A stretch of DNA of 63,127 nucleotides, filler included, from Dugesia japonica (Eukaryota), in the NCBI GenBank assembly GCA_001938525.1. It is 5 parts of 5 records of this genome, joined end to end, with 100 filler letters (N's around TTAATTAATTAA, not from the genome) between each part and the next. Parts side by side here need not be neighbours in the genome. Positions count along the whole stretch, not along the records: positions 1 to 19,451 come from MQRL01531714.1; 4 more parts are not named here. One strand, 5' to 3'. A program made the position numbers and the translations under genes. The notes under the pieces are model-generated. The model had not been told where the DNA came from and made no database searches. It saw only the letters and a list, made by a program, of their open reading frames with translations. This document shows positions 665-54,310 of the stretch, one piece after another. The stretch's first letter is position 1; each line of letters begins with the position of its first letter.

Positions 665-727
<63 letters not shown>

Positions 728-1689
728 ATAAAGGTTTTAATTTATCACAGAAAAATAAGTTATCTAAGCACACAACAAATGAAAAATTTTAATTTTAATT
801 TGATATTTTAAAATCAAATTCGATTTTTTTCCATATCAAAATGAAAGTTGAATAAGCGTTTTCACGAATTTTATCAATTTAATTAGCATACTAATTCAGA
901 AAAAATATGAAAAATCTACTTTAAATAATTTCATTAAGTTGTAACGATATATTTGGCTTTTAAATACATTTTAATAAAAATAAACAATTTCTTATTTAGA
1001 TAAAATTAAAATAATTTCAGAATTGAATATAAAATAAACTGAATTTCTGTTTTGTAATTAATTTCCTTATTTTAATTAAAATAAAATGAATAAGTAAATT
1101 TTGGTGTGTAAAAAATTACATTTCAAAACGTTAAAGCTGTCATAAATTAATTTAATTAATTTTTCATCAAAAACGTTAGTAAAATTCGAAATCACTCAAT
1201 TTATTTAATCAATTTAATTTCAACAATTGCTCACGGTATTAATTATTGTTTTTTGACAGAAATATTTTTTTCAGAATTATTATTTTTATTCTTTAATAAA
1301 CTTCTATTATATATCGAAATAACTTTCATTTGATAAATATTTTAATTTAACTTTAATTCTAAACAATCAAAGAAGTTAATCTTTAAATTTGTATTCGATA
1401 ATGTTTTATTGAAATATCCAATTTATGTGCTTGATTTTGATTGGATGCATGCCTCAGTAATATTAAATATGGTCTTCTATGTATAAATGCATCTTTCTTA
1501 ATTTGAAAAATAAGTTGTCTAGAAATATTCTCAAAATTATGAAGTTCATACAAAATAAATTTGAATTACTCTACAACAATCAATCACCGTAATTGAAGCT
1601 TAACTATTTAATCTAATTTTATCCGTTTTAATTCGTTAGAAATTATAATTCCAGATTTTCTATAAAATCTTAAAGAAATTTAAATCAAA

Positions 1690-5480: not shown

Positions 5481-6036
5481 GAACCTAGCGATGTCTGCTA
5501 GAGTAGATTTGAGATGTTTCGGATAGGATTTCAAACTACATCATGTTATAATTTAAGATTCTACAAGGGGTTTTTCAAATGATAAATGTATATTTGAATG
5601 TGAATAACGGTTTGACTTCGGCTTCTGATTCCTTTTAAATGAAATGGAATTTTTTGCTAAATGATGGTAATTTTATCTTGAACTCTTTTGCTTTTCCAAT
5701 CAATTCCTTAAAATTAATTGGTGAACACTTGTATTTTCTGTTATTGATCCGTGGTTAAATTTAATATTAGCTTTAAAAGTATGAACGAAGTTTTCCAATA
5801 CTATAGTTTTCTTGATAAAAGTTTTTGTTGTTGTTTTTGACTAAATTCTGAGGGTTTCTTTTATATATTTTTCGTTACAACCCAACTTTCTTCGTATTGA
5901 GTATCTATTTTTGTTTTTTGATTCTTGGTTTTCATTGGTGTTGGTGCCAATTTTCTGATTTTTTCTTAGAGTTTTTGATTCTCTAATGGTGCCTATTTTG
6001 TCTTATGTTTCTTTTCTGGTCTGTGATTGGCCCATA

Positions 6037-6180
6037 GAGCTTCGATCAAATTTTTTGTTTTTCATAATAATCCGAATGTTTTAAAAAAGTCAATTTCTTA
6101 CGAAGATTAAGTTGAAAAGTCGAATTATTATCAGAAACAAAAAGAAAAATTTTTTATCGAAGCTTTTATTTTAATGAAAT
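6037..6180 (+). mobile_element. Penelope-like pLTR remnant with inverted repeat and degenerate hammerhead
   Basis: AAGTCAATTTCTTACGAAGATTAAGTTGAAAAGTCGAATT...ATCGAAGCTTTTATTTTAATGAA matches the copies at 8051 and 52007. 6037-6075 is an inverted copy of ~6120-6165. Confidence 0.55.
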
Positions 6181-6669
6181 AATGTTTAATTTTTAATGCA
6201 TTTCTGAATGTATTATCTTATTTTTGAATTATAAAATCAATAGGATTACTTATTTTAGTGTAAAAACTTTGTGTTGAATTTAAAATTTCTATTGTATATT
6301 GTATACATAGAATATCTATTAGTAATTTGTATTGCACATGTCCTCAAGGCTTTCAATTAGACAAGTGTTCGTCGCAAAAAATGCATTTACTAAGAATGGA
6401 AAAAAATTCCATTAAATTAAAAAATATTATAACTAAATGCTCATTGATAAAATTCAATACAAAAGATTTTGTGATTTAGTTTTATATGTATTATGANNNN
6501 NNNNNNNNNNNNNNNNNNNNNNNNNNNNNNNNNNNNNNNNNNNNNNNNNNNNNNNNNNNNNNNNNNNNNNNNNNNNNNNNNNNNNNNNNNNNNNNNNNNN
6601 NNNNNNNNNNNNNNNNNNNNNNNNNNNNNNNNNNNNNNNNNNNNNNNNNNNNNNNNNNNNNNNNNNNNN

Positions 6670-6732
<63 letters not shown>

Positions 6733-6989
6733 ATAAAGGTTTTTATTTAAAAAGTGAATTTTATACAATAATGTTAAATGCAAAGATTCATAGTACATAT
6801 CCGGTGAACCATTTTGAATTACACCAAAGACAGAATCTCACTAAAATGTTTATGTTGCCAATATAATGACTTCATAATGGAATTGCATATTATGAATTTT
6901 TACTTGTTAACTATAAAATTGATACAAATTAGTTTTCTCAGAAATTAATGAAAATAAAAAATTCTAGCAACAGAAATATATAAAAATTG

Positions 6990-7373
6990 TAAATTATGGA
7001 GATGTTGTTTTTCATCACGACAACGCAAATCCTGACACATCTTTGAAGACTTCATAAAAATTACTAGAAAATATCTGAGATTTTTTGATACATCCCCCAT
7101 GTAGTCCTGATATGGTATCAACAGATTACTATCTGACTCGGTGTCTCCAAAACTCTTTTGCTAAGAAAATATTTATCTAAGATGACAAAACGTATCTACA
7201 AGTATTTTTTGCTCAGCAAAATTACAAACTTTTGAAAAGAAAATCACAATACTAAGAGATTGCAAAGAATTGTCAAAAGTAATGATCAATAGTTCTAGCA
7301 AAAAAGATTTTCTGTGTTTAAAATTTGCTTTTTATTTCATTGTATAAAATAAAATAACTTTCCGGTTAACCTA
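6990..7373 (+). mobile_element. Mariner 3' remnant with right TIR
   Basis: Reads GDVVFHHDNANPDT...LIHPPCSPDMVSTDYYLTRCLQN and ends AATAACTTTCCGGTTAACCTAA-TTA, a TTAGGTT-type TIR. Confidence 0.75.
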
Positions 7374-7451
7374 ATTAATACAAATTTTTTAATCCTAAAT
7401 ATATTTCTTAAAACTTTAAATGATACGCACACCCATAAATATATATGTATA

Positions 7452-7800
7452 AGTAGTAGTGGAAATACGCTTTTAAGCCAGGAGGTAGCTCCAAATTCGG
7501 GCAAAGGGCATAAACGATACCAGTACAACAGAGTTCAGTACTATCGTAATCGCAAGCGATAACCCCCGAAACAGAAATTAAGCAATGATTACATAGGAAA
7601 AAAGAGGGTAATCATTACCAGGGAACAGAGTTTGGTACTAGTACAACAAACTTAAGAAAAAAAGGGTTTGTTATTTGGCTTGTATTTTGGCTTCGATATG
7701 TATGGGTCAGATTTTTTTTGTAGAAGTTTCTAGCTTTGCGCTTGTTGTGCGCGGCGCTATCGCACATTTTGCGTGAAAATTCTCTGGCTTATAAGCATAT
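7452..7800 (+). repeat. Putative left terminal inverted repeat of the Polinton
   Basis: Abrupt AGTAGTAGTGG start and a non-coding, GC-richer segment upstream of the viral ORFs. The partner TIR is not seen. Confidence 0.6.
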
Positions 7801-7924
7801 TTTCTCTATTACTAGTAATTAGTTTTTTTTCTTGATTTTTTGTATTTTCATTTTATTACTTAAGAAAATGTATTCTAATAATACAAGTGAAGATATACAA
7901 CCTATATCAACTGAAGAAAAATTT

Positions 7925-8305
7925 TATAAACTCTTAAAAAGTTATAATTTTATTGAAAAATTCTGTTTTAGCTTTTTCAAAACAAAATAATGTAAACTAA
8001 AAAACAGTTAGAAAATATTTAAGAGAATTTAATATTCCTTATAATAGGAGAAAAGTCAATTCCTGACGAAGAAAAGGTCGAAATATCGAATTGTTATCCA
8101 ATATCAATAAATAAACCTAAATTTTGATCAAAGATTTTATATTAAACGAAAATGATTAGTAATGAAATAATGCAAAGTGATTTTTTTAAACTCTTAAAAA
8201 GTTATAATTTTTAGAAAATTTTGTTTCAAGTTTAATTAAACAAAATAATGTAAATAATAAAATAATAATAAAATATTTAAAAGAATTTAATATTCCTTAT
8301 AATAA
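7925..8305 (+). repeat. Two diverged ~120-bp direct repeats (7925-8046, 8185-8303) encoding an HTH-like peptide
   Basis: TAAACTCTTAAAAAGTTATAATTTT...ACAAAATAATGTAAA...AAATATTTAAxAGAATTTAATATTCCTTATAATA occurs twice. Peptide: KQNNVN*KTVRKYLREFNIPYN. Confidence 0.75.
8057..8093 (+). ncRNA. Minimal type I hammerhead ribozyme motif (Penelope-type)
   Basis: CAATTC-CTGACGA-AGAAAAGGTC-GAAA-TA-TC-GAATTG gives a perfect 6-bp stem I, the CUGANGA and GAAA cores, a short stem II, a palindromic ATAT stem III and an AUC cleavage triplet. Confidence 0.7.
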
Positions 8306-8709
8306 TATAAAAACATATTAAAATTTCAAAAAGAGATGTTAATGGTCAATATAAATCTTTTATAACACGATTTTCAAAATTCCAAATCCAACGAATGCAA
8401 ATCTCAAAGAGTCGCATTCAAACCCTAAAATAGATTTTCATAAAATGAGTGATTCAGATTTTCTAAAAGTTGTTGAAAATACTGTTCGGAGAAAACTATA
8501 ATGTATCATTTTTTCACTAAAGAAAATGGGAAGTAAAAAACCGGCTATCCTAAAGAACCCCATTCAAAAACCAAAAATACAAGAAGTTTTAGTATAAACA
8601 GTTTGTATAATAGTATAGATAATTTTTCTAAGCTTGAAAATTTTAGTATTAATAAAATTAATAATTTTGCTTAATGTGAAATTACAAATATTTAGCTGTT
8701 TTAAAAGGT

Positions 8710-9180
8710 ATGTATTCTCAAGTTGAGAATTTTAAAGAAAGTGTAAAGTTTAAAACATTATTATTTATAATGCTTACAAAATTTTGTGAATCAGAATGTA
8801 AAGGAGAAATAATAAATAATTTATCTAAACAATCTCTTCAAAATATTGAAATAATAAAAAAATTAGAAAGTAATTATCAAATAAGAAAGAGATGTATGTA
8901 ATGAATTGAGAGAACAATTAAATCTTGAACAAAAACCAAAATTTATTGAATATCCAGGCTTAAAACTTTCTTTAATAAAATATGAAGATGATGATGCAAT
9001 TATTACAAATATGGATTATATAAATATTGCAAACGAAATAAAAAAAATAGTGATAACCTATGTGAAAGATTAATCAAAGTAAAAATACTAAAAGAATATG
9101 AAGATGATATAAAAAGAGTATATGCAGCTAAAAGCGATTTACCAAATTATTTAGTAAAAATTTCTAACTCTAAATATTAA
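8710..9180 (+). pseudogene. Polinton small hypothetical ORF (frameshifted)
   Basis: ORF 8710-8901 plus a coding-like continuation (KPKFIEYPGLKLSLIKYEDDD...). Lies within the element. Confidence 0.35.
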
Positions 9181-9192
9181 ATAAATTCATAT

Positions 9193-9628
9193 TTATTTTT
9201 TATAATAAGGCTCTCTAAATCGATTGTTAAGATTTCTATAAGATTTTGGTTTTTTAATCTTTGAATTTGTTACAAGATCATTCATTTTATCTCTAACAAC
9301 GTGCTCATCAAGAAACATTCTATAAGTGTTTTCATAACAATTATAGAATTCCATAAAATTGGGAAAAGCATCTTTGAATACATTATTAGAAAATAATATT
9401 TTATATTTTTCAAATAATCCTCTTGGATTATAAATACCATCATATTTATCATGTCTCAACTTGTTATATTCTTGTTGTTGCTCTAATTTTAATTCTTTCT
9501 TATTATTGAGTCAAGTCATAATATTCACATTCTTGATCCACAAAATTAAAATATTCTTGTGGACTCATTTTAAAATATCTACTTTCATTTAATAACATAA
9601 TACATTCCTCATTAGTTAAGTTTTCCAT
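9193..9628 (-). pseudogene. Polinton hypothetical ORF
   Basis: ORF 9193-9459 extends upstream, with disruptions, to an ATG near 9628 (MENLTNEECIMLLNES...). Confidence 0.4.
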
Positions 9629-9729
9629 ATTAATAATTAAGTTTATGGTTAAGTTTTTGATTTTATGTTGATTAATTAACCATCTTTAAAGCAGGTGAAA
9701 GCTATTTAACTAAATTATTTATACTTAAA

Positions 9730-12609
9730 ATGTCTAGCCAATTGATTTGTCCAAATAATATTTGCAAAAAGATTTTAAAAACAAATCAGGTCTAACAGCT
9801 CATGTTAGATCTCGGCGCTGTGCGCTACACTGAGCGAGCTTTACTTGTTTAAAATGTCTAAGCACATTTCGATCTATGAGTGGTTTGAGAGAACATGTGA
9901 ATTCTACAATTTGTGGAATTGCACATAATGTTCCGTTGTTTTGTGAAATTTATAATAAAAAGTTTTTATATCAGAACCATGCNAAAACTCATTACAATTC
10001 AAAGAAACATAAAGAAATGGTTAACAAATCATTATTTGATCAACTTCCTGATGAAGAAGCAATTGCTTATGATCCAGAATTTCTTGATATCTTTAGAATG
10101 TACAAAAATTATGAAATTGAATATTTTAAAGATAGTAAAGTGGAATTAACTAAAGAAGTTGAACATGTAATATAAAGACCTATGATTAATGAATCTCAAA
10201 AAGAAATACTCGAAATTATTACCAAGTATCTTACTTATGGTAAAAAGATTATTGTTTGAATGAGTGTCAATTGTAATTATAATAAACAAGTTAACTGTGA
10301 AAACGTTGAGAGAATTTTTAATTCATATTCAAAGAATAGACAATTTACTATTGTAAGTGAAATTAATGATGGTGTTAATGATATTGTAAATGAATTACAA
10401 AGATATATCAAAGATGAAGATCGAAACGAATCTGGTTGGAATTTAATTTATATTGTTGATTATAAAATCGAACTTTCTAAATATAAATCTTTAGCTGGAG
10501 CAACTTATCGGAAATTACCATTCTCAAAACCAGGTGTAATTAATATCCAAAATAAAGATGAAAAATGGTTTCTCTATGCAATGTTAGCTCATAAATATAT
10601 ATTTGATCACCCAACTAAAGTTGAAAAATATGTTCCATACTTAAATGAATTAAAAACCAATAGAATTAAATTTCCTGTAAATATTGATGATGTTAAAAAA
10701 TTAAAAGATTGGAAAATAAATGTATTTACTGTAACCAACTCCAAAATAATTGAACCTTTATATATTTTACATTATGAAACTAAATCTAAATCTGAGGAAA
10801 ATAAATGGAATTTATTAGTTTATACAAAACCCAGTGGGCCCCACCATTTTATTTTATGTAGTATTTTGTAGTATTATCAAGTACCTTATACAACAAATAG
10901 AAATAAAAATTATTTATGTATAAGATGTATGACTTGTTATAATAGTAAAGATTTATTAACAAAACATCAAAAAGAAGGTATTAATCATGAAATATCAAAT
11001 ATAACATTTTCAAAAAAATTTTATTATTATTTTCAAAATTATTATTAGAAAAATAAAAATCCTTTTGTAGTTTATGGTGATTTTGAAAGTTGAACTAATA
11101 TTAACACCAAAAAACAAAACCCTTTATCACTTGAAATTTATGTAGTGAGTAAATATTCACATTTAATACAAAATGAATAAAAAGAATTTTATGGAGAAAA
11201 TATTCATGAACAATTCTTTGAATTTTTAAATGAACTAAATAATAAATTAAAAGATATTAAAGAAAATAAATTAATCTTAAATTATAAAGGAGAGTTTACT
11301 TTCCATCAAAAATTCCCAATACTGAAGTTGCTCACCTAAAATGTAGATATTGTGAAAAATCGATTGGAATAGAGCTCTTTGGGATAACTGAAAATCCAGT
11401 AATTGATCATAATCACTTTAATGGAAACTTTAGACGTTATTCTCATTCAAAATGCAATTTACAAGACAAATTAATAAAGAATTTATTTATTCCATTTTAC
11501 TTTCATAATGCCTCAGGTTATGATAATCATTTATTTTTCAAAGAATTAATTAGTAAATATCCAAATAAAGTTAAAAAGATAATTCCTCATACAGATCAAG
11601 TGTATATTTCATTCCAATATGAAAGTATTAGATTTTTAGATTCAGCAAGAATGTGTCAATTTACATCAATTGAGAAAATGAGTGAAATGTTAAATCAATT
11701 TGGAAAATATAATCACTTAAGAGCATTTAATTTAAATGCAAAGAAAATATCATTTTCATATGAATATGCTAAAAGAGAAAATATAAATGAAGTAATTGAA
11801 TTAATAAAAGGAAGCCCTCTTTGATCAGATCCCATCGGGTCCCATTGAATTCCATCAAAAGAAGATTTTAATAATAAACTAAATCCAAAATGAATATCAG
11901 AAAGTGATTATAATGAATTTGTACAAGATTTTAATCAATTTGGTAATTTATTTGATTACATGATGTATTATATGAAATTAGATGTAATTATTTTAGCAGA
12001 TTTCTTTGAAAGCTTTAGAGAAACATGTTTAAATAATTACCAAATAGATCCTTGTTATTGTTATTCAGGTCCAGGAAAAACTTGGAATTCTGGTATGAAA
12101 TTTACTAAAATAAAATTAAATATGCACAAAAAGAAACTTATGACAGATTTATTAAAATTGAAAGAGGAGTTAGAGGTGAATATTATGAAGTGTGTGGTGA
12201 AACGCAGGTATTTGGAAAAAATAAAAGAAGTAATAAAAAAATAAGTAATGCGCAATATGATGATTTATTAAATTTATTAAAAAATAAACAATATCTTCCA
12301 GATGATTATTTTGAAGAAACATTTCGAAAATATTTAGATGAAAATAGTTTATATGCATCCTGTATGACAAATCCATTATCAACAAGTGAAATTTATGAAT
12401 GTCTTCCAGAGTCAGGTCAGGACTTAAATTATACTCCATCAACAGATAAAATTAATTATATTTATAAAGTTGATTTAGAATATCCACCAGAAATACATAA
12501 AAAGACAAAATATTTTCCTTTACCACCAGATCCAATTAATATAAAAAATGAAATGTTAAGTCCTAATCAATTAAATTTTGATACAAAGTTGAGCAAAAAA
12601 AATATTTAA
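9730..12609 (+). pseudogene. Protein-primed family B DNA polymerase (pPolB) with N-terminal zinc fingers and EndoVII-like insert; frameshifted and 3'-truncated
   Basis: Motifs read across frames: ESGW, VINIQNKDEKWFLYAMLAH, Exo I PFVVYGDFES, EndoVII-like CRYC...VIDHNHFNG...HSKCNL, Exo II YFHNASGYDNH, RFLDSA, Exo III YMKLDVIILADFFESFR, Pol motif A YLDENSLYASCM, and VDLEYPPEIH. Motifs B and C are absent. Confidence 0.92.
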
Positions 12610-22564: not shown

Positions 22565-25500
22565 TGTTGGGGTTCCATCTAAGTAGCTCAATTTTAAGTT
22601 ATGTCAGGAGTAGGCTGACCTAGTAAAAATCTCAAGAAGAATTTAATCTAGTGTGTATATTTTAGATCTTCAGAATGGAGTCGGTGACTCGTAACCCGTA
22701 GTTTGAGTGTATGCTCGCATTCCTTTGGTTTTGGTCACCACTTCATAATACTCGCTTTAATGAGGTACACTTAACCATTATTGCTTTATTAGTCATTGTC
22801 AATGGTGACAGCTTTTCCATATTTTAGTCGTGCAACTATATCCAGCTATTATTACTCGCGTCCTTACCACATCCTTCATAGTTTATAATTTTGTGAGTTG
22901 GAAAAAACAGAAAATCAAGCCTCTTGTTCATAATTCATTACAATGCTGATTATCGTTTTATTATCATGGACAAGTGTTGGCATCAAGCCATACTCATACG
23001 CTATCCTTATTATCAACATCATCATTAACTATATTCAAGTTAGTTATATACCGCCATTAATTATTATCAGTACCACTTATTATGCAATCTTATTATCGCT
23101 TATCACCTACATTAACTATTAATATTATTTCTCACAGTTGTCATTAATATTATTAATATTATTATTAATATTAATATTATTATTATTATTAATATTAATA
23201 ATATTATTAGTAATATTAATATTATTAATATTATTCTTGAGGTTTATCTAAGTGGGTTGATTTTTTTTGTCATTAAGTCTAGGTTGGTCGGCTTAGTAAA
23301 ATCCCATGAAAAATTTAATCTGGAGTCTTCAATAATCCAGATCTTCGGAATGGAGCCGTTGACTCGGAATCCGAGTACAGACTCGCATTCCTTTAATTTG
23401 AGTTCATATTTCATGATACTTGCTTGATTCTCCAGATAGTCTTAATCCCTTTTGTCTAATAGTCAATGGTGTCAGTGTTTCGCATTGTATGTCTATGTCT
23501 AATCAATGTTTCTTAATATCTATACTCGTTATAATGAGTGGGATTTGAGCATATGATCGAGTAGTTAAAGTGATAATTCATGTGGTTAACTTTAAAGGTC
23601 ATTAGAGAAAGTTAATTGCCATGTGAGCTTAGTATTATCCTTAGGCTCAGATTTTATAACAAAAATCATCAATATACATCCTCGTAGTTAATTAAATATT
23701 ATCAATAATCTGTAATTTATATCAGAACGACTTGTCACTAAGTACATTATTAAATAACCTCCCCCGTTCGCGCCTAATTTTATCATTATTTTGAGTTAAT
23801 AACACTCCACGGGAGGCCCTGCTTACTAGAAAGGAAAAGTTAATCTAGTTGAAAAATCTCTGTTTTAATTTATCATGAGTGGAGAACCATAATATTTAGT
23901 TGTTTTTAGTATGAACGTTTTTAATTTATCATTTTACTTAGTTGCTAAAAAATGAGTTAATTTTAGCTCTAATTACTGGTGTAAGTTTAATAAAAGAATT
24001 TAAATAAAAGAAAATTGCATTAAATAAACAAAATACGGTTATGGAAAGTTATATTATTGTTAGTTCCATCAGTTACACATTAAATTAAAATTACATCAAT
24101 AAAACAAAACTAACATGCATAGTGCATAGGGATCGTTTCATTTGTTACTTCTTCAACCAATCTTCTGTAGATCCTTCTGAATCGGAAATCGTTGTAGGAA
24201 TCAGTTAACTAGAGATTACCTTTAAGTTATAATTTCCCAGTTGAATTTGCTTTACGTTTGTTTTCAGAATTATTTGGATTCAAAACTGACATTAACTAGC
24301 GTATGGTTTAAATTTTGCTTCCGAATATTTTTTATGAGTAACTTTCGTCTGAAATTGAAACGATTATTATACTGTTTTCTCTTTACACTCAGTTCATCTT
24401 ATTGGTTACTGCGCATCGTATGATTTTTCTAACATTTCTTTTGGCTTGATCGTTACATGAGTTCTTCTTATTGGTTGGTATTTTTGGGATTCCAAAATTA
24501 TTGCTCAATCTTCAAACCCTTGTATCTTCTTTCCTAGTCTTGTTATAATTTTTTAACTTGGATTTTCGAAATTTTTTTACCATAATTTTCGTAATTGCTA
24601 ATTTTTCCACCATAGGAAGTCGACATTTTTGCCATATTTTCATAAAATATTTAATTTTCTTTTAAAAATAAATCATTTTAATTCGTATGATTTATTTTAT
24701 TTAAATAAATAAATTACTTATTTTATTTTCTTCTTAATTATTAATTATATGTTCATTTCTTTGTTTTTTCTGATCTAAATTTAATTTAATTTCGCTGTTT
24801 TCTTCTACTAATTAATTCATCTAATTTATTTTCTGTAAGTTCATTATTCATTTCCTGCAACTTTTTTTCTTCCGTTATTAATTGACCTTTCTTTGTTCTC
24901 TTAGTCTGTTTGTGTCTTCCAACATTTCTTTTCTCCTTTTGTGACTCTATAGGTTGCGGATTATCTCCCATATTTAGTTCCTTAATTTCGGTTTTTTCTT
25001 CAATTATTCCTTTCGGTAACTTGGTCTGACTTCTTCTTTTGTCTTCGTTTTCTTTCTTGTGACATTCTTTCGACTTTCGGGTTTGCTTATCGCTAGTTTA
25101 TTTTCTATTTTTCGGTGTTTCACCCCAACATTATTATTACCACTATCATTATCATCATCATTATTATCATTATCATCATTTTTTAGTCTTATCGTTATTA
25201 TTATTGTCTTTAAAAATTACAAATTGCCCCTGAAGATTATTTATTACTGATTACTTCAACAAGGAACAGTGGTTTTATTATTACCTTATTACTATTTTCG
25301 TAACGCCTTGATTTTAAAATTAAAAATCATTATTATTGATCATTATGAATTGAAATTAATGAAATATTAATTAAATATTACTACAACGATTCATTACTAC
25401 AAATTTTAATTAACCATGTTAACCATTAATCAATATTAGTATTTGCAAATTATTATTAATTTATTATTGTTTAATTATAAATATTTCCAATAATTAAATT

Positions 25501-27147: not shown

Positions 27148-29311
<2,164 letters not shown>

Positions 29312-37707: not shown

Positions 37708-40140
37708 AATAAAATCGAAATTAATGAAGAAGAAATTCCAACAATTAGTAAAAGTTCTATGAAATTAGAATTCGACTATCCGATTACTTCATTGTCAATT
37801 GAAACAGAAAATCCAAATAACATCCGAACTGGATCATTATTGAAGGAAAATGGTTACGATATTAAAAATGTACTCAATATGGATAGCAATGATGAGTTGG
37901 GTTTGAATAATTCATTGGAAGACAATAATATGAAACGAATCAAATGTTTTTGTGAAGAAGAATTTTTCAGTATTTTAGATTTGATTTCCCATTTAAAAAC
38001 TTGTCAACAAGGTCGAGATATAAAATTGAATCCGTTTTTGAAATGGGCAACAGAATCATTAGAGCCTTTATCAGTCGAGGAAAGTCCAATAAAGATACAC
38101 TCGGTGAGTTCTAGTGCATCGGAGGCCTTAGATTTAAGTAAAAAATCCCCAACTGTTGACCATGTAGAACCGATAATAAAAGTAACGAATTTATTAGACG
38201 GAAATCATGAAACAATTAAATGGCATTGTCCAGAATGTAAATTCATTTGCAGCAATAAAATTCTTCTATTAGAACATTTCGACTGTGAACATAAAGAAAG
38301 CGGTTCATTTTCGTGTACATGTGGCCACATTAACGATTGGTTGCCGTCGTTTCTGCGACACTATATTGTCTGTAAAGTTGCAGCAACAGATCTCCAAGAA
38401 GAACATAAAGACGATATCAATTTTCAAACTGAACCGAATTTTCATAATTTCGATGTAGATTTCATTAATAAAATGTCCACAACCCATTCGAACTTTTCGA
38501 AATTATATAATAATAGTAGACTTGATTTGTCATTCGGTCTTTTGTCTGGTTTATCGCATCAATTTCTTAATGGTTGGCTAGAACCTTGTAAATTAGATGT
38601 TCCATTGTCTTTTCAAAATAAATGTCCGTGGTGCCAGCGTACTTTTGCAAATGTAACTGAAGCGTCCAATCACATTAATCAATGCAATATCAAACCTTTA
38701 CTGAAATCATTTGATAAACCATTCGGTATTGATTTTCTAAAATCAACAAATTTGCCATTTTCACACTCATCGATTCCGTTGTCGCCGTTTTCAGATAGGC
38801 ATCTATCAACTAATAATGCAACTATTAATGGACCACCACCAGAAAATTCTCGACATTTTAAGTGCAGTCACTGTATAAAATCTTTCAAATCTAAAGCTTT
38901 ACTTGATCAACATATGCATATACATTACCCACCAAAGTACACTTGCAAATATTGTGGAAAAAAATACAGATGGCCTCCTGTGTTTTATCATCATCAAAGA
39001 ACATGTAAAAAACGACCAGCAGCTTTAATTTCATCAACAACTTCATCATCAGGAGGGTGTCTAACATCACTATCAACAACATCTGCTACAATTACAACAG
39101 CTTCTACTTCCTTTTTAGGAAATACATCCAATCTTTCTAATTCTTTACATACTCAAGTTTCATTACCGCATCCACCAAATAAAACGTCTCCGCCAAACTT
39201 GATAATGAACGGATCAAACCCATTTATGCAACATCCGTTGATTAATTTTCCATCTAAGCCATCTTTCCAGCCACTTTATCCCGGAAATAATGGNNNNNNN
39301 NNNNNNNNNNNNNNNNNNNNNNNNNNNNNNNNNNNNNNNNNNNNNNNNNNNNNNNNNNNNNNNNNNNNNNNNNNNNNNNNNNNNNNNNNNNNNNNNNNNN
39401 NNNNNNNNNNNNNNNNNNNNNNNNNNNNNATAAATCCTTTAAATTTCAAATCCATCAATTCAGGATTGGAACACAATCCATTTCTGCACCCAAATGGTTT
39501 GATGCTGCGGCCACCAATTCAGTCACCGTATTTCAATCCGGGATTCCATCAATCAACAATAAAACCAAAAGTGAGTCCACCAATATCTAATCAAACAACT
39601 TCCATTTCATCAAATTTTCTTCAATCAACAGATCCCATCATGGTGGCCTTCGCATCCCCGATAAATTCACAAAAGAATCCAGCTTTTATGCCAGATGCCT
39701 TCTCATTGAATTTGAATTCCAGCAGCTCGACTTCCAATTCCAATACGAGTCCGAATTCCTCCCTCAATAACAATTTGAATCCGAAAAATACTCTCCTTCC
39801 GGCATTGACTAATTTTGATAGACTACTCTCCCATGAAATGGCTCGGATACCTATGCAAAACAGTCCACCATTCAATCCATCACTTCATCCTCATCACCAT
39901 TTTTTTGGAATTGGTAAATCATGCAACCAATGTGGCAAAGAATTCAGCAGTCGATTATCGTTAAAACAGCACATCGAAGGAAAGCACAGTACTGAAGGTA
40001 AATATCAGTGCCCGAGTTGTAGTAAACGCTACAGATGGGGTGCATCATATTATTATCACAAAAAATCATGTATAGCATCCAAAGATTCTATCAGTTCCCC
40101 AAATCCCAGTCCTACAATGACAGAGATGATATTTGACTGA
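37708..40140 (+). CDS. Multi-zinc-finger transcription factor (C2H2/C2HC fingers, ALDLS CtBP-type motif), main exon
   Basis: Intact ~800-aa frame with one N gap. About 8 fingers, e.g. CSHC...HMHIH / CKYC...HQRTC and CNQC...HIEGKH / CPSC...HKKSC. In-frame TTTAG acceptor 51 nt upstream of the track ATG. Confidence 0.9.
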   Translation, partial: NKIEINEEEIPTISKSSMKLEFDYPITSLSIETENPNNIRTGSLLKENGYDIKNVLNMDSNDELGLNNSLEDNNMKRIKCFCEEEFFSILDLISHLKTCQQGRDIKLNPFLKWATESLEPLSVEESPIKIHSVSSSASEALDLSKKSPTVDHVEPIIKVTNLLDGNHETIKWHCPECKFICSNKILLLEHFDCEHKESGSFSCTCGHINDWLPSFLRHYIVCKVAATDLQEEHKDDINFQTEPNFHNFDVDFINKMSTTHSNFSKLYNNSRLDLSFGLLSGLSHQFLNGWLEPCKLDVPLSFQNKCPWCQRTFANVTEASNHINQCNIKPLLKSFDKPFGIDFLKSTNLPFSHSSIPLSPFSDRHLSTNNATINGPPPENSRHFKCSHCIKSFKSKALLDQHMHIHYPPKYTCKYCGKKYRWPPVFYHHQRTCKKRPAALISSTTSSSGGCLTSLSTTSATITTASTSFLGNTSNLSNSLHTQVSLPHPPNKTSPPNLIMNGSNPFMQHPLINFPSKPSFQPLYPGNNXXXXXXXXXXXXXXXXXXXXXXXXXXXXXXXXXXXXXXXXXXXXXXINPLNFKSINSGLEHNPFLHPNGLMLRPPIQSPYFNPGFHQSTIKPKVSPPISNQTTSISSNFLQSTDPIMVAFASPINSQKNPAFMPDAFSLNLNSSSSTSNSNTSPNSSLNNNLNPKNTLLPALTNFDRLLSHEMARIPMQNSPPFNPSLHPHHHFFGIGKSCNQCGKEFSSRLSLKQHIEGKHSTEGKYQCPSCSKRYRWGASYYYHKKSCIASKDSISSPNPSPTMTEMIFD

Positions 40141-44079: not shown

Positions 44080-44272
44080 TGCGATGATCTTCTTCATACA
44101 CGCCCCATTATTTTTCGATGTTTTGTTACTTGTTATCAACTTATCATAATTAAATGTTATCAGTATGCATAATAATATCAGTAGGTTTAATATTAATTTA
44201 TTTATTGCTTATAACTGCCAAATAATTTTTCAAAGTTTCTCTGTTTTAACTGTAATTATCAGATTGATGACA
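44080..44272 (+). repeat. Dispersed repeat, second copy at 46540-46790
   Basis: Shared GATCTTCTTCA...TACACGCCC...GATGTTTTGT.ACTTGTTATCAACTTATCATAAT...ATCAGATTGATGACA. The second copy ends in a GC-rich terminus (46790-46857) resembling a DNA-transposon end. Confidence 0.75.
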
Positions 44273-45390: not shown

Positions 45391-48300
45391 AATAAANNNN
45401 NNNNNNNNNNNNNNNNNNNAAAATGATTTTATTCATCGTTTATGTTTGAATTTAGGTGTTAGAAAATCAGTATAAATATTGATACATTTTTAATTTGTCT
45501 CAAAGGACAAATGCTATCTAAATTGATTATGCAGAATCTAACTAAGTTTTAGCGATGTTCAATAAATTATTGACGAATCAGTTGGTTATTTTACAGATTT
45601 CGAAAGTTGAATTAGAACACAATAAATTAAACTAAATCTTTTCTTAAACAGGCATATTTTAAATAAGAATGCAAGAAATTTTCTTTTTAAACCGACCTTT
45701 ACTTGATAATCAAAGTCAAGTTATTTTCATAAGTTGAATTAAAATTTTATTATAAACTTTTGTATTGGAAGCAGCAATATTATTTTGAAAAGGCGTGAAT
45801 TTATGTTTCAAAAGAATTCAGACAACTGGTTTTTTAATTTTTCGACGAACTTCAGTAATTTATAGTATTCCGAACACTAAATAAAGACAATTCCATACTC
45901 GAAGATTAAATAATTTCCGTTTAATTTTTCAAATCCATATTCAATATAAAATCTTATTCCAATATTTTCATGTTTTAAATCTGATTTCGTAAGCTTTTAA
46001 TGTGAAAATTTAATTTTACAATTTATCATTAATGAAAAGTGATATTATTTAAAAAAAAAATTAAATATTTTGATCATGTAAAAACCTAATGCAGTTTTAA
46101 TTCTGCTAGAAATCAATTCTTTATCTATAAAATATTTTGATACGTTTGCACAAGCTATTTTCGAGTTAATTCTTGTAATTCTATTATTGATTGTGATTGA
46201 AAAAATAAGATAATTATGATTGTTAGATGAGTTTGAGATGATTCCATTTAAACATATTAAACAAAAACAATAGATTTAATTTGGTTATTTTAAGCAAATT
46301 ATATCTGCTAAATAATTTAAATTTTCACTTTAACTTGAAGAATTTTTAAAAAAAAATTAAAACAATCCTTATATTATTTCTAGTTTTATGAAAAATGTTT
46401 TATACAAAAATATTTAATTTAAAATCTCAAAGTTTACCACAATCATTAATCTTTTCTTACAATGATTTCTGCGAATTTATGTATTTAATTTGTATCAAGT
46501 ATTTTTAAAATTAATACACATTGCCTTTTTATAATAACTGGAACGATCTTCTTCACCCGCCTGTATGCTTTGAATACACGCCCAATTATTTTTGGATGTT
46601 TTGTCACTTGTTATCAACTTATCATAATCAAAGGTTCTCAGTATGTATAATAATATCAGTTAGTTTTAACATTAATACATTATTTATTGTTTACAACTGC
46701 TAAATTAATTTCAAAGAGTTTCTCTGTTTAAGTTTTAAATTTTTTATTTTATGACTTATGTAAATAATGTAATAATCAGATTGATGACATGGCGTCCTCT
46801 CCACAATGGCGTCCGCCAGCAACGCAGGCTTTGAAGTCCCGATTACGCCGACCCAGTTAAAGATTCAATATATTTATTAGAAATTATTTTTATTGAATAT
46901 TCATTTTGGATTTAAAAATTGAAACATTTAAAATTAATATAAGAATACTTAATTTATATTCTCAATTTATTAAATAAATTCAATTATTTTAATAATTTCT
47001 TGTTTCTTTCAGCTAACACTCAAAATCCGTATTTAAATCTTTATTTAATTTTAGTTCGAATACTTACAAAAGAAAGAAAAAATATGGTAAAGTAATAAAT
47101 TACCCGTTGTCAATGAAAAATGTAATTAAAGAATGCAAATTATAATAAGAATATCTAAATTCATATTTAATCCTAGAATAATAATTAAAACAGATATATT
47201 TTTAATTTCTAATCCATATAGAATGAAAAAAATGCATACAAAAATTCCGTTTACAAGTAAGATTCACTTTATGTAAAGCTATTATTAAATTGAGAATTTG
47301 TCTGTTTGAATAGTAATTTTTTTAATACATACGTCCAAAGTAATTTTTTTTACAAAAGAGTGTTTTTTATATTTTTTCTGCCATAAAAAAATTTAATTAA
47401 AGAAAAATACCACGAGAATACTTTCAACACTATCAGTAGAACAATCTTCAAATGGTTGGCATTACTTCTGCATTAAAAAATGAAATTAGAAGCATAAATT
47501 GAAAACAGTAGATTTAAAAATAACATCATTCATAATGCAAAAATATAAAATAAAAAAAGCTAATAATTAATGAATATAAATTAAAAAGTTATTCCTAACA
47601 AATATTTTCCACAAATTTTATACTGAATATTGAAATTAATCTTTTGTATCGTTTATTCGAAATATTTAATAGCGTTTTTCCGTAATATATAGACAGTAAG
47701 AAAAAAAATCACTTTCAAAAATACTGAAATATAGGCAAAAAAAGTCCATTTGACGTTATATTTAATTTTTTTGACCGATTCCAATCGCTTTTTTCGATTA
47801 ATTATCAATATGAATGGATTTTTTTATTTAAAAATGTGAATAATATCCACATTCATGCCACTTGTTGCGTATAGTTATGATGAAACATTTACTGTGCATA
47901 ATTTTAATCATATTTAATTTGTTGAAATTATACGAAGGTCTATTGCAGATTTTCAATATTATGATCATCAATATATGTAGTTTTCTTTTTTCTATCATTT
48001 CCATTTTTACTTTCCTAATTACCAGTTTCTTAAGAATTTTTGAGAAATTCATTCTTAATTCCAATTATTAAAATGGACTTTGTGAGGAATTAATTTAATC
48101 TTTTAAAAGCTGATAAGATTATTGTTTTGCTTACTTTTAACTTTCTTGAAGAACATTGTCGAAAATTCGAATATTTAATAACAAAATAAAAACAATATTT
48201 TGATCGAATCTTGTAATTTAATGAAATCTCAAATACGATCAAAGTCCAACAATTATTTTCGCCAGTATAAAATAGCTTTTAAAAAAATGCTTTAAAATAA

Positions 48301-51300: not shown

Positions 51301-51915
51301 AAACGGCAGTAAGAATAGAAAAATGTAAAAAGAGTAAATCCACAAGAGTAATAATAGAACTATTGGGAAAGGAAATATCTTCGATTAAAGAATCAATTGT
51401 TTTAAAGGTTAAAAATAAAGAAATAACATACCAGAAAGAAAACAGAAGTAGCAAAGTAAAAATTACGAATAAAAAATAAACAAAAATAAAATGCGAATAA
51501 ACAAGAGTAAGTCAAAAATCAAATAACTAATTTCGAATAATGAGGAAGTTAAATAATCATTGTCATGATATTATAAGGATAGTGCTGAGAGTATTATTTT
51601 TAGACAAATTGCTGCACTAAATAAAGAAAATTCTGTTGAGTACGGAAGACTCACCTATAATACATGGACTTGAAAGTTACACGTGTAAATAATTATTTGA
51701 GTTGGCGTTCTATGCGTGTCATTATTAAACATTATTTCTTGTTATCTTTTATCGTTTGTTAAGATTCAATATAATCTTGGGAGTTCCTTACATACCCACA
51801 AGCATTTAATCAAGTTTCCCCCTCTTGATTTTCTCAAGAAAGTTGGTGATTCCAAATCTATAAAGTACATGACTTTTTCTCTTTGGTTTTATTTCCATTA
51901 AAGACTACAAATCTT

Positions 51916-52084
51916 ATTAAAATAAAAGCTTTGATCAAATTATTTTTTGTTTTTGATATTATTTAGAATTGTCGACTTAGTCTTCGTTAGGAATTGACAT
52001 TTTTCTATTCCTGACGAAGACTAAGTCGACAATTCGAAATATATACAAAAACAAAAAAAAGTTGATTGAAGCTTTTATTTTAAT
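51916..52084. mobile_element. Inverted pair of Penelope-like pLTR fragments (long hairpin) with hammerhead-like cores
   Basis: Arms of ~75 bp: GAATTGTCGACTTAGTCTTCGTTAGGAAT / ATTCCTGACGAAGACTAAGTCGACAATTC, extending to ATTAAAATAAAAGCTT / AAGCTTTTATTTTAAT. Confidence 0.75.
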
Positions 52085-52810
52085 GAATTCTGGTTACGAC
52101 TATGGAATCCAAATCGGGATTTCGGAATTCCAAAATTCCGCCTTGCTTTTTAAATTCGAAATTCCGAAATTGCAATAAATCGAATTCCGGATTTATTTAT
52201 TTTTGTTTTCTAACAAATTATACAAAATTCCTACGACTATTGACATAAGTACAAAAAAAAATTATTTTTGTAACGATTTTTTAAAAAAAAGTACAAACAG
52301 TATGCCATGAGAAATAAAAATATAAAAATAATGTTGTTAGATGAGTTTGAAGTACTCATCGGGTAATTAATGACAAAACTCGTTTCCATATAAGATTTAT
52401 TTACAAAACAAAACTGTATTCATAACTATTTGTTTATTCAAATGAAAACTCTATGCTTTAATTGGGAATCATTTTTCAATAAATTTAAAATTTTAGATGA
52501 AATTTTCATTGAAAATAATTTCGAAAATTCAAAAAAATAATCAAAATCTCATTTAAAATCTCTCCAAAAATTCAAATAAAATAATCATTTGTATTCAAAA
52601 TCTTATTTAAAATTCTAAAAATCTACAATGAATTGTGTAAAAAATATATAACTATTATAAATATTAACTATTCATAATTTTTTTTACAAAAATTTGATTT
52701 AATTTACTTTAATTTCTTAAAAAATTTCTGACTTTCAATTTTAGAAAAACATTTTAAGAAAATGTTTTCCAACCAAAGCACAAAAATTTTAACTCGCTTT
52801 TCAAAACATA

Positions 52811-54310
52811 CTAACACTCCCCTTTGGGGAATATTTTTGATCTTCTCTACGCTTCTTTCGAGACTTTTTCCGTTTGTATCTTCCAGAATGTAGCGTCTGT
52901 CGTGAACCTTTCCTTTGATCTTATAGGTTCTTCCAAAACGATCTTGGTTTTTGTTTTCTGTTTCTACTTACACTTCATCACCAACTTTGAATTATCTTTT
53001 GGTTAGTATCTCTTTATCTTGATCTTTGTGCTCTTTTTGAGAATCTGTTTTGTACCATTTTCCTTTGCTTACTCTCTTCCGAAATACAATTTCAGCAGAG
53101 CTTTTTCCGATGGTTTTCTCTTTTGGAGCATTCAAGGAAAATTCTATCTCCGGCAATACATTAGCTCAATCTGAGGTTTTCCTTTCTTTAAGTGTTGCAT
53201 TAATTAAACCCCGCATAGTTCTAAACTGTCTCTCAATTTGCCCATTTGTGTTATGACGATATGGACTCAAAAACCTGAGGGTAATTCCATGTTCAGCTGC
53301 AAAATCTTACATTGATTTAGACTCAAATGCTCTTCCACAATCAACTCGACTTTTTCTCGGACAACCGAACTTTAATATGCAATTCTACATTATTGCTTTC
53401 CGTGTGGTATCTTCATCTTGTCTNNNNNNNNNNNNNNNNNNNNNNNNNNNNNNNCATTAGTCTATTATACCAAGAACATATCTTTTTCGACCTCTTGTCT
53501 CCTGCATGGGTCCACAGACATCTATAAATAACAACTTAAAAATTTCGACAGGCTGTGTATTTTCGTTTCTTCCTTCGTTTTTGTTGTCAATACTTTACCT
53601 TTCTGGCATGTTATACTTACTCCTTGTGTATACAAATTCCTTCAGTATAATGACCTTCATTTGTATATTCCAATTTTATATCTAAACTGCTCAAATAATT
53701 AATCCAAGCTTGAAACAATGATATGAACAGTTTCTTGGTATTAAGCATAAATGTGATGGCTTTATGATCTGTTCTAAGGATAAATCTCTTTCCATTTAAG
53801 TAATGTTTGAAATGAATAAAAAAGTAGTAAATTCCGAGTAATTCTTTCCACGTAGTACAATATCTTTTCTCATGACTCGTCATTGCATGTGACCCATAAG
53901 CAAAAACTCTTTCTTGACCATTGTTGTCCCTTTGAAATAGTACTGCACCAATCGTATCGAAACTTGCATCCGTGTTCAAAGTAAATTCGCTCTTTATATC
54001 TGGAACACATAATATTGGAGACATCATTAGTGCTTCTATCATTCCATTAAAAACGTCTTCTAATTCATTCGACCATTCAATCTTCTCGTCACTAGTTGTT
54101 ACAGAAATTTAGCTCTTTTCGAATAATCTTTAATAAATGGGCGATAGTAATTACAAATTCCTAAATATGCTTCTCATCTTCTTAACGTATTTTGGTTTGT
54201 CAAAGTTCTTAATTGCTTCTATTTTAGTTATATCTGCTTTGACACCTTCTTTAATCATAACGCGTCCTAAAAATGTGATCTCGTTTTGTAGGAGTTGACA
54301 TTTTCTCAAG
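52811..54310 (-). mobile_element. Ty3/gypsy pol remnant (RT end, RNase H, integrase, PPT)
   Basis: Reads LGICNYYRPFI, TDASFDTIGAVL, ELLGI, RTDHKA and DCGRAFES...SPYRHNTNGQIERQFRT. Minus-strand AAAGGGGAG-TGTTAG marks the PPT/LTR junction at ~52816. Confidence 0.9.

What the first reader, a model, noticed from the sequence alone, without database searches (positions are those of the whole stretch)
8051..8150. Hammerhead ribozyme with intact core inside the provirus
Seen: a minimal type I hammerhead with a perfect stem I and conserved cores, predicted to cleave after C8087. It sits in a ~100-bp segment shared with repeats at 6083, 19552 and 52007 and is the best-preserved of the copies. Known: Penelope-like elements carry such minimal, dimer-dependent hammerheads. 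Inferred: it is either a post-integration Penelope insertion or a ribozyme captured by the virus near its left end.
Basis: partly seen in the sequence, partly recalled or inferred. Interest (0 to 1): 0.7.

Follow-up and report, generated by a model that had tools for sequence, protein, structure and literature searches.

The report
Host retroelement hammerhead inside decayed Polinton
The hammerhead-ribozyme motif is real, but it belongs to a very abundant ~120-base host repeat, likely the end piece of a Penelope-like retroelement, that sister copies of the surrounding Polinton lack, so it is likely an ordinary later insertion and not a viral ribozyme.

Summary
The motif is there: 6-bp helix I (8057-62/8088-93), intact cores, an unpaired base before G10.1-C11.1, a 2-nt palindromic helix III, and a predicted cut after C8087. 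A relaxed descriptor hits only this site; 4 of 500 shuffles give a hit. Helix II has only 2 pairs, so this copy fails the published minimal-hammerhead descriptor. Its base at 8073 is a minority variant (~2% of family depth). The segment 8051-~8174 is a host repeat: six copies at five loci in the window, two loci with inverted arms, and about 70-180 times the summed contig depth of its flanks. Sister Polinton contigs jump across it with a net loss of ~259 bp, lacking both the repeat and a ~130-bp flanking duplication. Best reading: a decayed solo or 5'-truncated Penelope pLTR inserted into an already integrated Polinton. No Penelope ORF was found and cleavage is untested. A Penelope hammerhead inside an integrated DNA virus is already published (Cotesia bracovirus). 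Ordinary; interest low.

The parts
8051..8174 (+). One copy of a high-copy ~120-bp host repeat (hammerhead at its 5' end, A-rich tail); likely a solo or 5'-truncated Penelope pLTR. The 5' edge is sharp; the 3' edge is uncertain between ~8146 and ~8174.
   Evidence: depth jump in bins 8030-8151; 209, 301, 293 and 73 contigs with unrelated flanks ending at 8051, agreement 0.44-0.45; alignment to the 6085 copy
8057..8093 (+). Minimal type I hammerhead motif: helix I 8057-62/8088-93, CUGACGA 8063-69, unpaired A8070, helix II 8071-79 (2 pairs, third mismatched), GAAA 8080-83, palindromic 2-nt middle 8084-85, UH 8086-87, predicted cut after 8087
7922..8050 (+). Left copy of a ~130-145-bp duplication of Polinton sequence flanking the repeat; it lies in the element's first ORF remnant (ATG at 7868)
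   Evidence: 82% identity over 133 nt
8182..8308 (+). Right copy of the duplication
   Evidence: sister contigs carry one copy only (joints)
7452..7460 (+). AGTAGT-type left terminus of the Polinton-like element (motif recalled as a Polinton end); no matching right terminus in the window
10203..12579 (+). Fragmented protein-primed PolB-like gene with an endonuclease VII insert, the main evidence for the Polinton/adintovirus-like context
   Evidence: Atlas 0.96; relatives of 1,055-1,375 aa align in pieces; PF02945 in 3 of 8 scanned
6038..6200 (+). Family copy (6085 onward, core broken) preceded by an inverted tail-only arm (6038-6075); it lies outside the Polinton
19555..19595 (-). Family copy cut by an assembly gap; core and helix II broken; on the next contig, not a terminal-repeat partner of 8051 (the match covers 8051-8091 only)
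48142..48229 (+). Degenerate family copy
51914..52089 (.). Two family copies head-to-head (arms 90% alike); 3-bp helix II intact, GAAA broken in both

Best explanation
The motif is a minimal type I hammerhead in one copy of a very abundant ~120-bp host repeat, likely a solo or 5'-truncated terminal repeat (pLTR plus tail) of a Penelope-like retroelement, which likely inserted into the first ORF of an already integrated Polinton and has since decayed. Shown: motif anatomy, the dispersed family, its abundance, inverted pairs, and its absence from sister Polinton contigs. Inferred: a Penelope RT/GIY-YIG protein encoded elsewhere copied an uncleaved RNA (the copy keeps sequence on both sides of the cut site), starting about 60-90 nt past the cut site, into AT-rich DNA; the ~130-bp duplication would be a long target-site duplication. 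In the parent family the ribozyme would cut after C17 only as a dimer through the palindromic helix III, or with protein help. This copy is predicted to be weak or inactive: helix II has 2 pairs, and the nearest same-strand copy is 1,966 bp upstream with a broken core.
For: All published min-HHR hallmarks except helix II length are met: a base between positions 9 and 10.1, G10.1-C11.1, palindromic 15.2-16.2, GAAANNUH (against 45). The middle dinucleotide is palindromic in 4 of 5 parsed copies and occurs as both TA and AT. The family majority base at 8073 (97.6-98.4% of depth in 4 of 4 runs) pairs with 8077, giving a 3-bp helix II like the C. briggsae PLE motif. Inverted arms lie at 2 of 5 loci, and head-to-head inverted pLTRs and solo pLTRs are described for Penelope. 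Summed depth is 66-184 times that of the neighbouring bins. Sister Polinton joints 7959->8237, 7959->8238, 7959->8240 and 8047->8329 each net 259 bp, and 8031->8329 and 8052->8318 net 266 and 245; the repeat period is 258-260. RT starts internally, just downstream of the hammerhead, on unprocessed RNA in an Anolis PLE. New Chlamydomonas PLE insertions have a median length of 128 bp.
Against: No Penelope RT or GIY-YIG fragment among 169 window fragments scanned in Pfam, and no related locus in viral or metagenome contigs, so the partner is unseen. The sharp shared 5' edge at 8051 fits a defined unit better than random 5' truncation. Penelope target duplications reported in the passages read are 8-10 bp, not ~130 bp, and no shared 7-mer flanked three other loci. 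There is no covariation across the six window copies (0 compensatory pairs, 477 of 500 shuffles score as high). No listed contig bridges the Polinton-repeat junction, though the tables were cut and the runs hold at most 41% of the stretch's words.
Confidence: 0.72

Rival explanations
1. A stand-alone non-autonomous retroelement (a 'hammerhead SINE') with a fixed 5' end set by its own promoter. It is mobilised in trans by a PLE or LINE and is no longer a piece of any autonomous element's pLTR.
For: Sharp 5' edge at 8051 in hundreds of contigs; uniform ~120-bp length; no ORF partner in the window; long flanking duplications are known for LINE-type insertions (126 bp for R9, median 900 bp for Dualen).
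Against: Inverted pairs and the min-HHR hallmarks are typical of pLTRs; no tRNA head; no tandem array here as in non-LTR retrozymes (region 5900-8600).
Confidence: 0.17
2. A foldback or MITE-type DNA transposon whose arms contain a chance or fossil hammerhead; the single-arm copies are deletion products.
For: The 51914-52089 locus is a near-perfect 175-bp palindrome (-91.8 kcal/mol); no covariation.
Against: Single units have no terminal inverted repeats and no shared TSD; contigs leaving the repeat at 8051 disagree with one another (0.44), so most copies have no conserved left arm; all core and PLE-specific positions are met together.
Confidence: 0.07
3. The duplication and insert are a join of two sister Polintons that each carried a repeat copy (ectopic recombination or mis-assembly), not one insertion with a long target duplication. 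This changes the history of the locus, not the nature of the repeat.
For: The two flanks differ by 18-20%; no listed contig bridges the junction.
Against: It needs two same-strand insertions ~140 bp apart in two sisters; sister contigs differ from the window by roughly 5-17% (table 8), so an old duplication can also differ this much.
Confidence: 0.15
4. A ribozyme captured and used by the Polinton near its left end.
For: It lies 600 bp from the left terminus and is the best-preserved core in the window.
Against: Sister contigs in 4 of 4 runs cross the site without it; one such joint has depth 124 (X1) and 232 (X4) against about 6-10 for single contigs. It interrupts an ORF remnant, carries a minority helix II variant, and the family lies mostly outside the element.
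Confidence: 0.02

Closest known systems
Minimal hammerheads (min-HHR) in pLTRs of metazoan Penelope-like elements (Cervera and de la Pena 2014, PMC4209133)
   Same: Type I topology, CUGANGA plus one unpaired base, G10.1-C11.1, GAAANNUH with a palindromic NN, short helix I, dispersal mostly as single motifs, and occasional close pairs on opposite strands.
   Different: Helix II is at the short extreme (3 bp with a 3-nt loop in the 52004 copies; 2 bp in this copy, below the descriptor minimum of 3). No PLE ORF linked here. This family's sequence is not among the 56 motifs listed in supplementary figure S3 as far as I could read it.
[quoted passage not shown] S4A)
   Same: A Penelope-type hammerhead lying inside an integrated large DNA virus sequence, with a second motif on the opposite strand.
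   Different: There a 1.1-kb partial RT-EN remains; here only ~120 bp, inside a Polinton.
PAc (Poseidon) of Anolis carolinensis (Frangieh et al. 2024, PMC11167929)
   Same: Gives a mechanism for short pLTR-plus-tail copies that keep an uncut hammerhead: internal RT start on unprocessed RNA, AT-rich targets, protein-assisted cleavage.
   Different: PAc is an autonomous element with a known protein; no protein is known for this family.
Non-LTR retrozymes (PMC7229834; bioRxiv 10.64898/2026.07.22.740005)
   Same: Non-coding, type I hammerhead, high copy, probably PLE-derived.
   Different: Retrozymes are tandem 200-400-bp units with canonical hammerheads; this unit is ~120 bp, dispersed or inverted, with a minimal hammerhead.

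Membership tests
PLE minimal hammerhead (min-HHR) | CUGANGA and GAAANNUH cores intact | tested here: met
PLE minimal hammerhead (min-HHR) | Unpaired base between positions 9 and 10.1, and G10.1-C11.1 pair | tested here: met
   A8070; G8071-C8079 (criteria)
PLE minimal hammerhead (min-HHR) | Palindromic 15.2-16.2 / helix III | tested here: met
   palindromic in 4 of 5 parsed copies, including 8051
PLE minimal hammerhead (min-HHR) | Helix I of 3-7 bp | tested here: met
   6 bp here; 0-5 bp in the other four parsed copies
PLE minimal hammerhead (min-HHR) | Helix II of 3-7 bp, in this copy | tested here: not met
   2 bp; 0 hits with the published descriptor. This copy is a damaged member; the next row covers the family.
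PLE minimal hammerhead (min-HHR) | Helix II of 3-7 bp, in the family | tested here: met
   3 pairs in 3 of 5 parsed copies; the majority base at 8073 pairs with 8077
PLE minimal hammerhead (min-HHR) | Compensatory changes in the helices | tested here: inconclusive
   none in 6 decayed copies; too few sequences
PLE minimal hammerhead (min-HHR) | Self-cleavage as a dimer or with protein | not testable with these tools
   needs an in vitro assay; no RNA-read evidence was obtained
Penelope-like element | RT plus GIY-YIG ORF bounded by the repeat as pLTR | tested here: inconclusive
   none in 169 window fragments; no whole genome held
Penelope-like element | Solo and inverted (head-to-head) pLTR arrangements | tested here: met
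   2 of 5 loci have inverted arms, the rest are single (description)
Penelope-like element | Short, variable or absent target duplication | tested here: inconclusive
   no shared 7-mer at 3 loci; ~130-bp duplication at this one
Non-LTR retrozyme | Head-to-tail tandem units, each with a hammerhead | tested here: not met
   no tandem unit in 5900-8600; copies are dispersed or inverted
MITE / foldback DNA transposon | Terminal inverted repeats and a fixed TSD on each copy | tested here: not met
   3 single units lack TIRs; no TSD at 3 loci
Polinton-encoded feature | Present at the same site in sister copies | tested here: not met
   joints across the site in 4 of 4 runs
Polinton/adintovirus (host element) | Protein-primed PolB gene | tested here: met
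   (in pieces)
Polinton/adintovirus (host element) | Paired TIRs, integrase, capsid genes | tested here: inconclusive
   left terminus only; no integrase or capsid hit in Pfam; the contig ends at a gap at 19452

The most novel reading that the evidence does not exclude
The repeat is a free-standing ~120-nt hammerhead-headed SINE with a fixed 5' end and tens of thousands of copies. It carries one of the smallest natural hammerheads (3-bp helix II, 3-nt loop, 4-5-bp helix I) and can make target duplications over 100 bp. Because it is so dense, any long transcript would carry two copies able to pair through the palindromic helix III, making it a genome-wide source of RNA cleavage sites.
Probability: 0.15. 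Interest if true: 0.55.

Novelty: new member of a known kind. Interest (0 to 1): 0.2.

Why it matters
As a viral ribozyme it does not hold up. What remains is a decayed copy of a known kind of retroelement motif that gives the order of events: the Polinton came first, the insertion later. The family is of modest interest for its abundance (5 loci in 61 kb here, about one per 12 kb), its very short helix II, its sharp 5' end and the long flanking duplication. These features could test the internal-initiation model of Penelope insertion.

Tried and rejected
Whole-window Rfam scan: no hammerhead among 5 weak hits; the local scan gave only a sub-threshold RAGATH-1 match. Motif scans for relatives: 0 loci in viral contigs and 0 in metagenome contigs with two patterns; these collections are not animal genomes, so the blanks say little. 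No whole genome is held. No RNA holder was listed for 7400-10400, and RNA-read evidence on expression and cut ends was not obtained. X7 is only guessed to be RNA, and its repeat-to-flank ratio (89-184) resembles the DNA runs, so it is not used as evidence of expression. The idea that the 19595 copy is the partner in a right-hand TIR was rejected: the match is limited to 41 nt and there is no second terminus. The joint 7863->8051 has only 21 letters on one side and is treated as another copy's AT-rich flank. Joints with unknown letters between (for example 8052->8433) were not counted. A splice acceptor at the start of helix I, as in D. virilis, was considered and dropped: there is no pyrimidine tract. 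No tRNA head. The word-indexed protein search and the PDB sequence search gave nothing significant for the polymerase pieces. The earlier-findings look-ups by place and by sequence were empty. Literature searches: hammerhead+Polinton gave 5 papers, 4 listed; hammerhead ribozyme+Maverick+endogenous+DNA virus gave 1; no title or abstract start reports a Polinton-borne hammerhead. The host was only guessed from base composition for two searches, which showed no description of this family. The host is not established, and subscription papers and Repbase were not searchable.

Full report
Observation. The sequence at 8051-8100 parses as a type I hammerhead: helix I 8057-8062 with 8088-8093 (six Watson-Crick pairs), CUGACGA at 8063-8069, an unpaired A8070, helix II 8071-8079, GAAA 8080-8083, two bases, then U8086 and C8087. 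A strict descriptor of my own finds only this site on both strands, and 0 of 300 block-wise dinucleotide shuffles give a hit. The descriptor published by Cervera and de la Pena (supplementary figure S7) needs three pairs in helix II and gives 0 hits in the window. Relaxed to two pairs it gives this one site, and 4 of 500 shuffles hit. So the motif is not chance, but this copy has a mismatch at the third pair of helix II. The hammerhead fold is not favoured as a monomer (helix I pair probability about 0.08; z = 0.12). Rfam gives only a sub-threshold RAGATH-1 hammerhead match.

The family in the window. Six related copies lie at five loci: 6085+, 8051+, 19595-, 48142+, and a head-to-head pair at 51914-52089 whose arms are 90% alike. 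The 6085 copy is preceded by an inverted tail-only arm. Five copies were parsed by position; the degenerate 48142 copy was left out. Only 8051 keeps both cores, three keep a 3-pair helix II, and four have a palindromic middle, as TA or AT. The sixth pair of helix I is found in 1 of 6 copies, and no pair shows a compensatory change. That is what a few neutrally decaying copies would give, and it is no support for structure.

The family in the genome. No whole genome is held, so I laid contigs of four public runs of the same coded organism on 7420-9220 at 80% likeness. Summed depth in bins 8030-8151 is 0.48-1.14 million in the three DNA-type runs, 66-184 times the neighbouring Polinton bins across all four runs. 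Single contigs have depths of about 6-20. The tool warns that summed depth is no copy number, and overlap between short contigs can inflate it. The window density (5 loci in 61,354 called bases; 26-190 per Mb at 95%) points the same way: thousands to tens of thousands of copies if the genome is several hundred Mb (inference). In the four runs 209, 301, 293 and 73 contigs leave the repeat at 8051 into unrelated flanks (agreement 0.44-0.45), which marks a sharp 5' edge and many insertion sites. At 8073, 97.6-98.4% of depth shows another base, one that pairs with 8077, so the window's mismatch is a minority variant. The tables were cut (392 variant rows, 42 joints, 1,663 loose ends and 25,534 pieces not shown).

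The surrounding element. An AGTAGT-type terminus lies at 7452 (motif recalled as a Polinton end). A broken polymerase gene at about 10200-12580 matches PolB/endonuclease VII clusters (Atlas 0.96) and aligns in pieces with relatives of 1,055-1,375 aa. A PLA2-like fragment lies at 18300-18854 and a mariner has inserted at 15359-15919. No right terminus, integrase or capsid was identified before the gap at 19452. The element is heavily decayed. The repeat interrupts its first ORF remnant (ATG 7868) and lies between two copies of about 130 bp of that ORF, 7922-8054 and 8182-8312, 82% alike.

Sister copies. Of the joints shown with letters between that cross the site, four (7959 to 8237, 8238 and 8240; 8047 to 8329) remove a net 259 bp and two remove 266 and 245 bp. 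The duplication period is 258-260. Such joints occur in all four runs, and one has depth 124 in X1 and 232 in X4, far above single contigs. No listed contig bridges the flank-repeat junction itself, and the runs share at most 41% of the stretch's words. The junction is therefore unconfirmed outside the assembly, and a join of two sisters through two repeat copies is not excluded.

Mechanism. Shown: motif, family, abundance, inverted pairs, empty sites. Inferred: the unit is the terminal repeat and tail of a Penelope-like element, copied by an RT-endonuclease made elsewhere. In an Anolis PLE, reverse transcription starts inside the RNA shortly after the hammerhead, uses unprocessed RNA, targets AT-rich DNA, and the ribozyme cuts only with protein (PMC11167929, parts 1-2 of 4 read). 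That would give short copies retaining both sides of the cut site, as here. Solo and head-to-head pLTRs are described in Adineta (PMC3846280, passages). New PLE insertions of median 128 bp, and long target duplications made by LINEs, are described in Chlamydomonas (PMC9977147, passages). In the parent family the palindromic helix III would allow dimer cleavage, which is weak in vitro (PMC4209133; PMC6765202, passages). This copy is predicted weak or dead. Against the Penelope reading: no RT or GIY-YIG among 21 + 148 fragments scanned, a sharp 5' edge, and a duplication far longer than the 8-10 bp in the passages read.

Comparison with what is known. All four hallmarks of PLE min-HHR consensus families that can be read from one copy or a few are met except covariation, and this copy misses the helix II minimum (PMC4209133: main text parts 1-2 of 4 and supplementary file 2 whole; supplementary file 1 could not be searched). 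The same paper reports thousands of single min-HHRs per genome, close pairs on opposite strands, and a Penelope hammerhead inside the Cotesia bracovirus proviral locus, so a PLE hammerhead within an integrated DNA virus has precedent. It is not a tandem retrozyme (PMC7229834 passages; bioRxiv 2026.07.22.740005 part 1 of 5) and not a TIR-bounded MITE. Canonical hammerheads are reported near PLE 3' ends generally (PMC8557442, passages). The Lunse et al. paper on dimer cleavage was not held and is known to me only from a reference list and recall. Searches (listings only, except the papers named) showed no Polinton-encoded hammerhead and no description of this family; Repbase and subscription journals were not searchable.

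Verdict. The motif is real and of a known kind, this copy is damaged, and it belongs to the host rather than the virus. New member of a known kind; interest 0.2. Expression and cleavage in vivo remain untested.

Noticed in passing
window 51914-52089: Near-perfect 175-bp palindrome made of two head-to-head copies of the hammerhead repeat; both share the same break in GAAA, so one arm was probably copied from the other or from the same template. It explains the spurious MIR7996 Rfam hit.
   Followed up: partly
window 6038-6075: The inverted tail-only arm begins within about 8 nt of the position equivalent to the cut site; it could derive from a cleaved template or be chance.
   Followed up: no
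window 7922-8054 / 8182-8312: A ~130-bp duplication (82%) flanking the repeat, unusually long for a Penelope target duplication; origin unresolved.
   Followed up: partly
window 7481-7724: The left-terminal region of the Polinton has raised contig depth (up to ~3,300) and back-joints near 7518-7612, suggesting many sister termini or internal tandem units.
   Followed up: no
window 15359-15919: Mariner transposase remnant inserted in the Polinton (PF01359, E 1e-20); a second mariner-like remnant by eye at ~6950-7300, just left of the terminus.
   Followed up: partly
window 18300-18854 (-): Parvovirus/adintovirus-type PLA2-like fragment (PF08398 below cut-off; Atlas 0.91 with low recognition).
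   Followed up: partly
window 27300-29289 (-): hAT-type transposase remnant in pieces (PF05699, weak).
   Followed up: no
window 37708-40140 (+): Host C2H2 zinc-finger gene, long open frame with an assembly gap inside.
   Followed up: no
window 53620-54108 (-): Gypsy-type RT-RNase H remnant (PF17919, E 7e-28).
   Followed up: no
window 44096-44246 and 46574-46729; 22554-22757 and 23224-23425: Two other repeat pairs (87% and 69% alike), not classified.
   Followed up: no
window 665-744 and 6670-6749: Near-identical sequence after two gaps (TAT microsatellite plus ~20 nt), possibly a microsatellite-headed repeat or an assembly duplication. Several gaps also contain a TTAA-repeat spacer, so neighbouring contigs may not be truly adjacent.
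   Followed up: no
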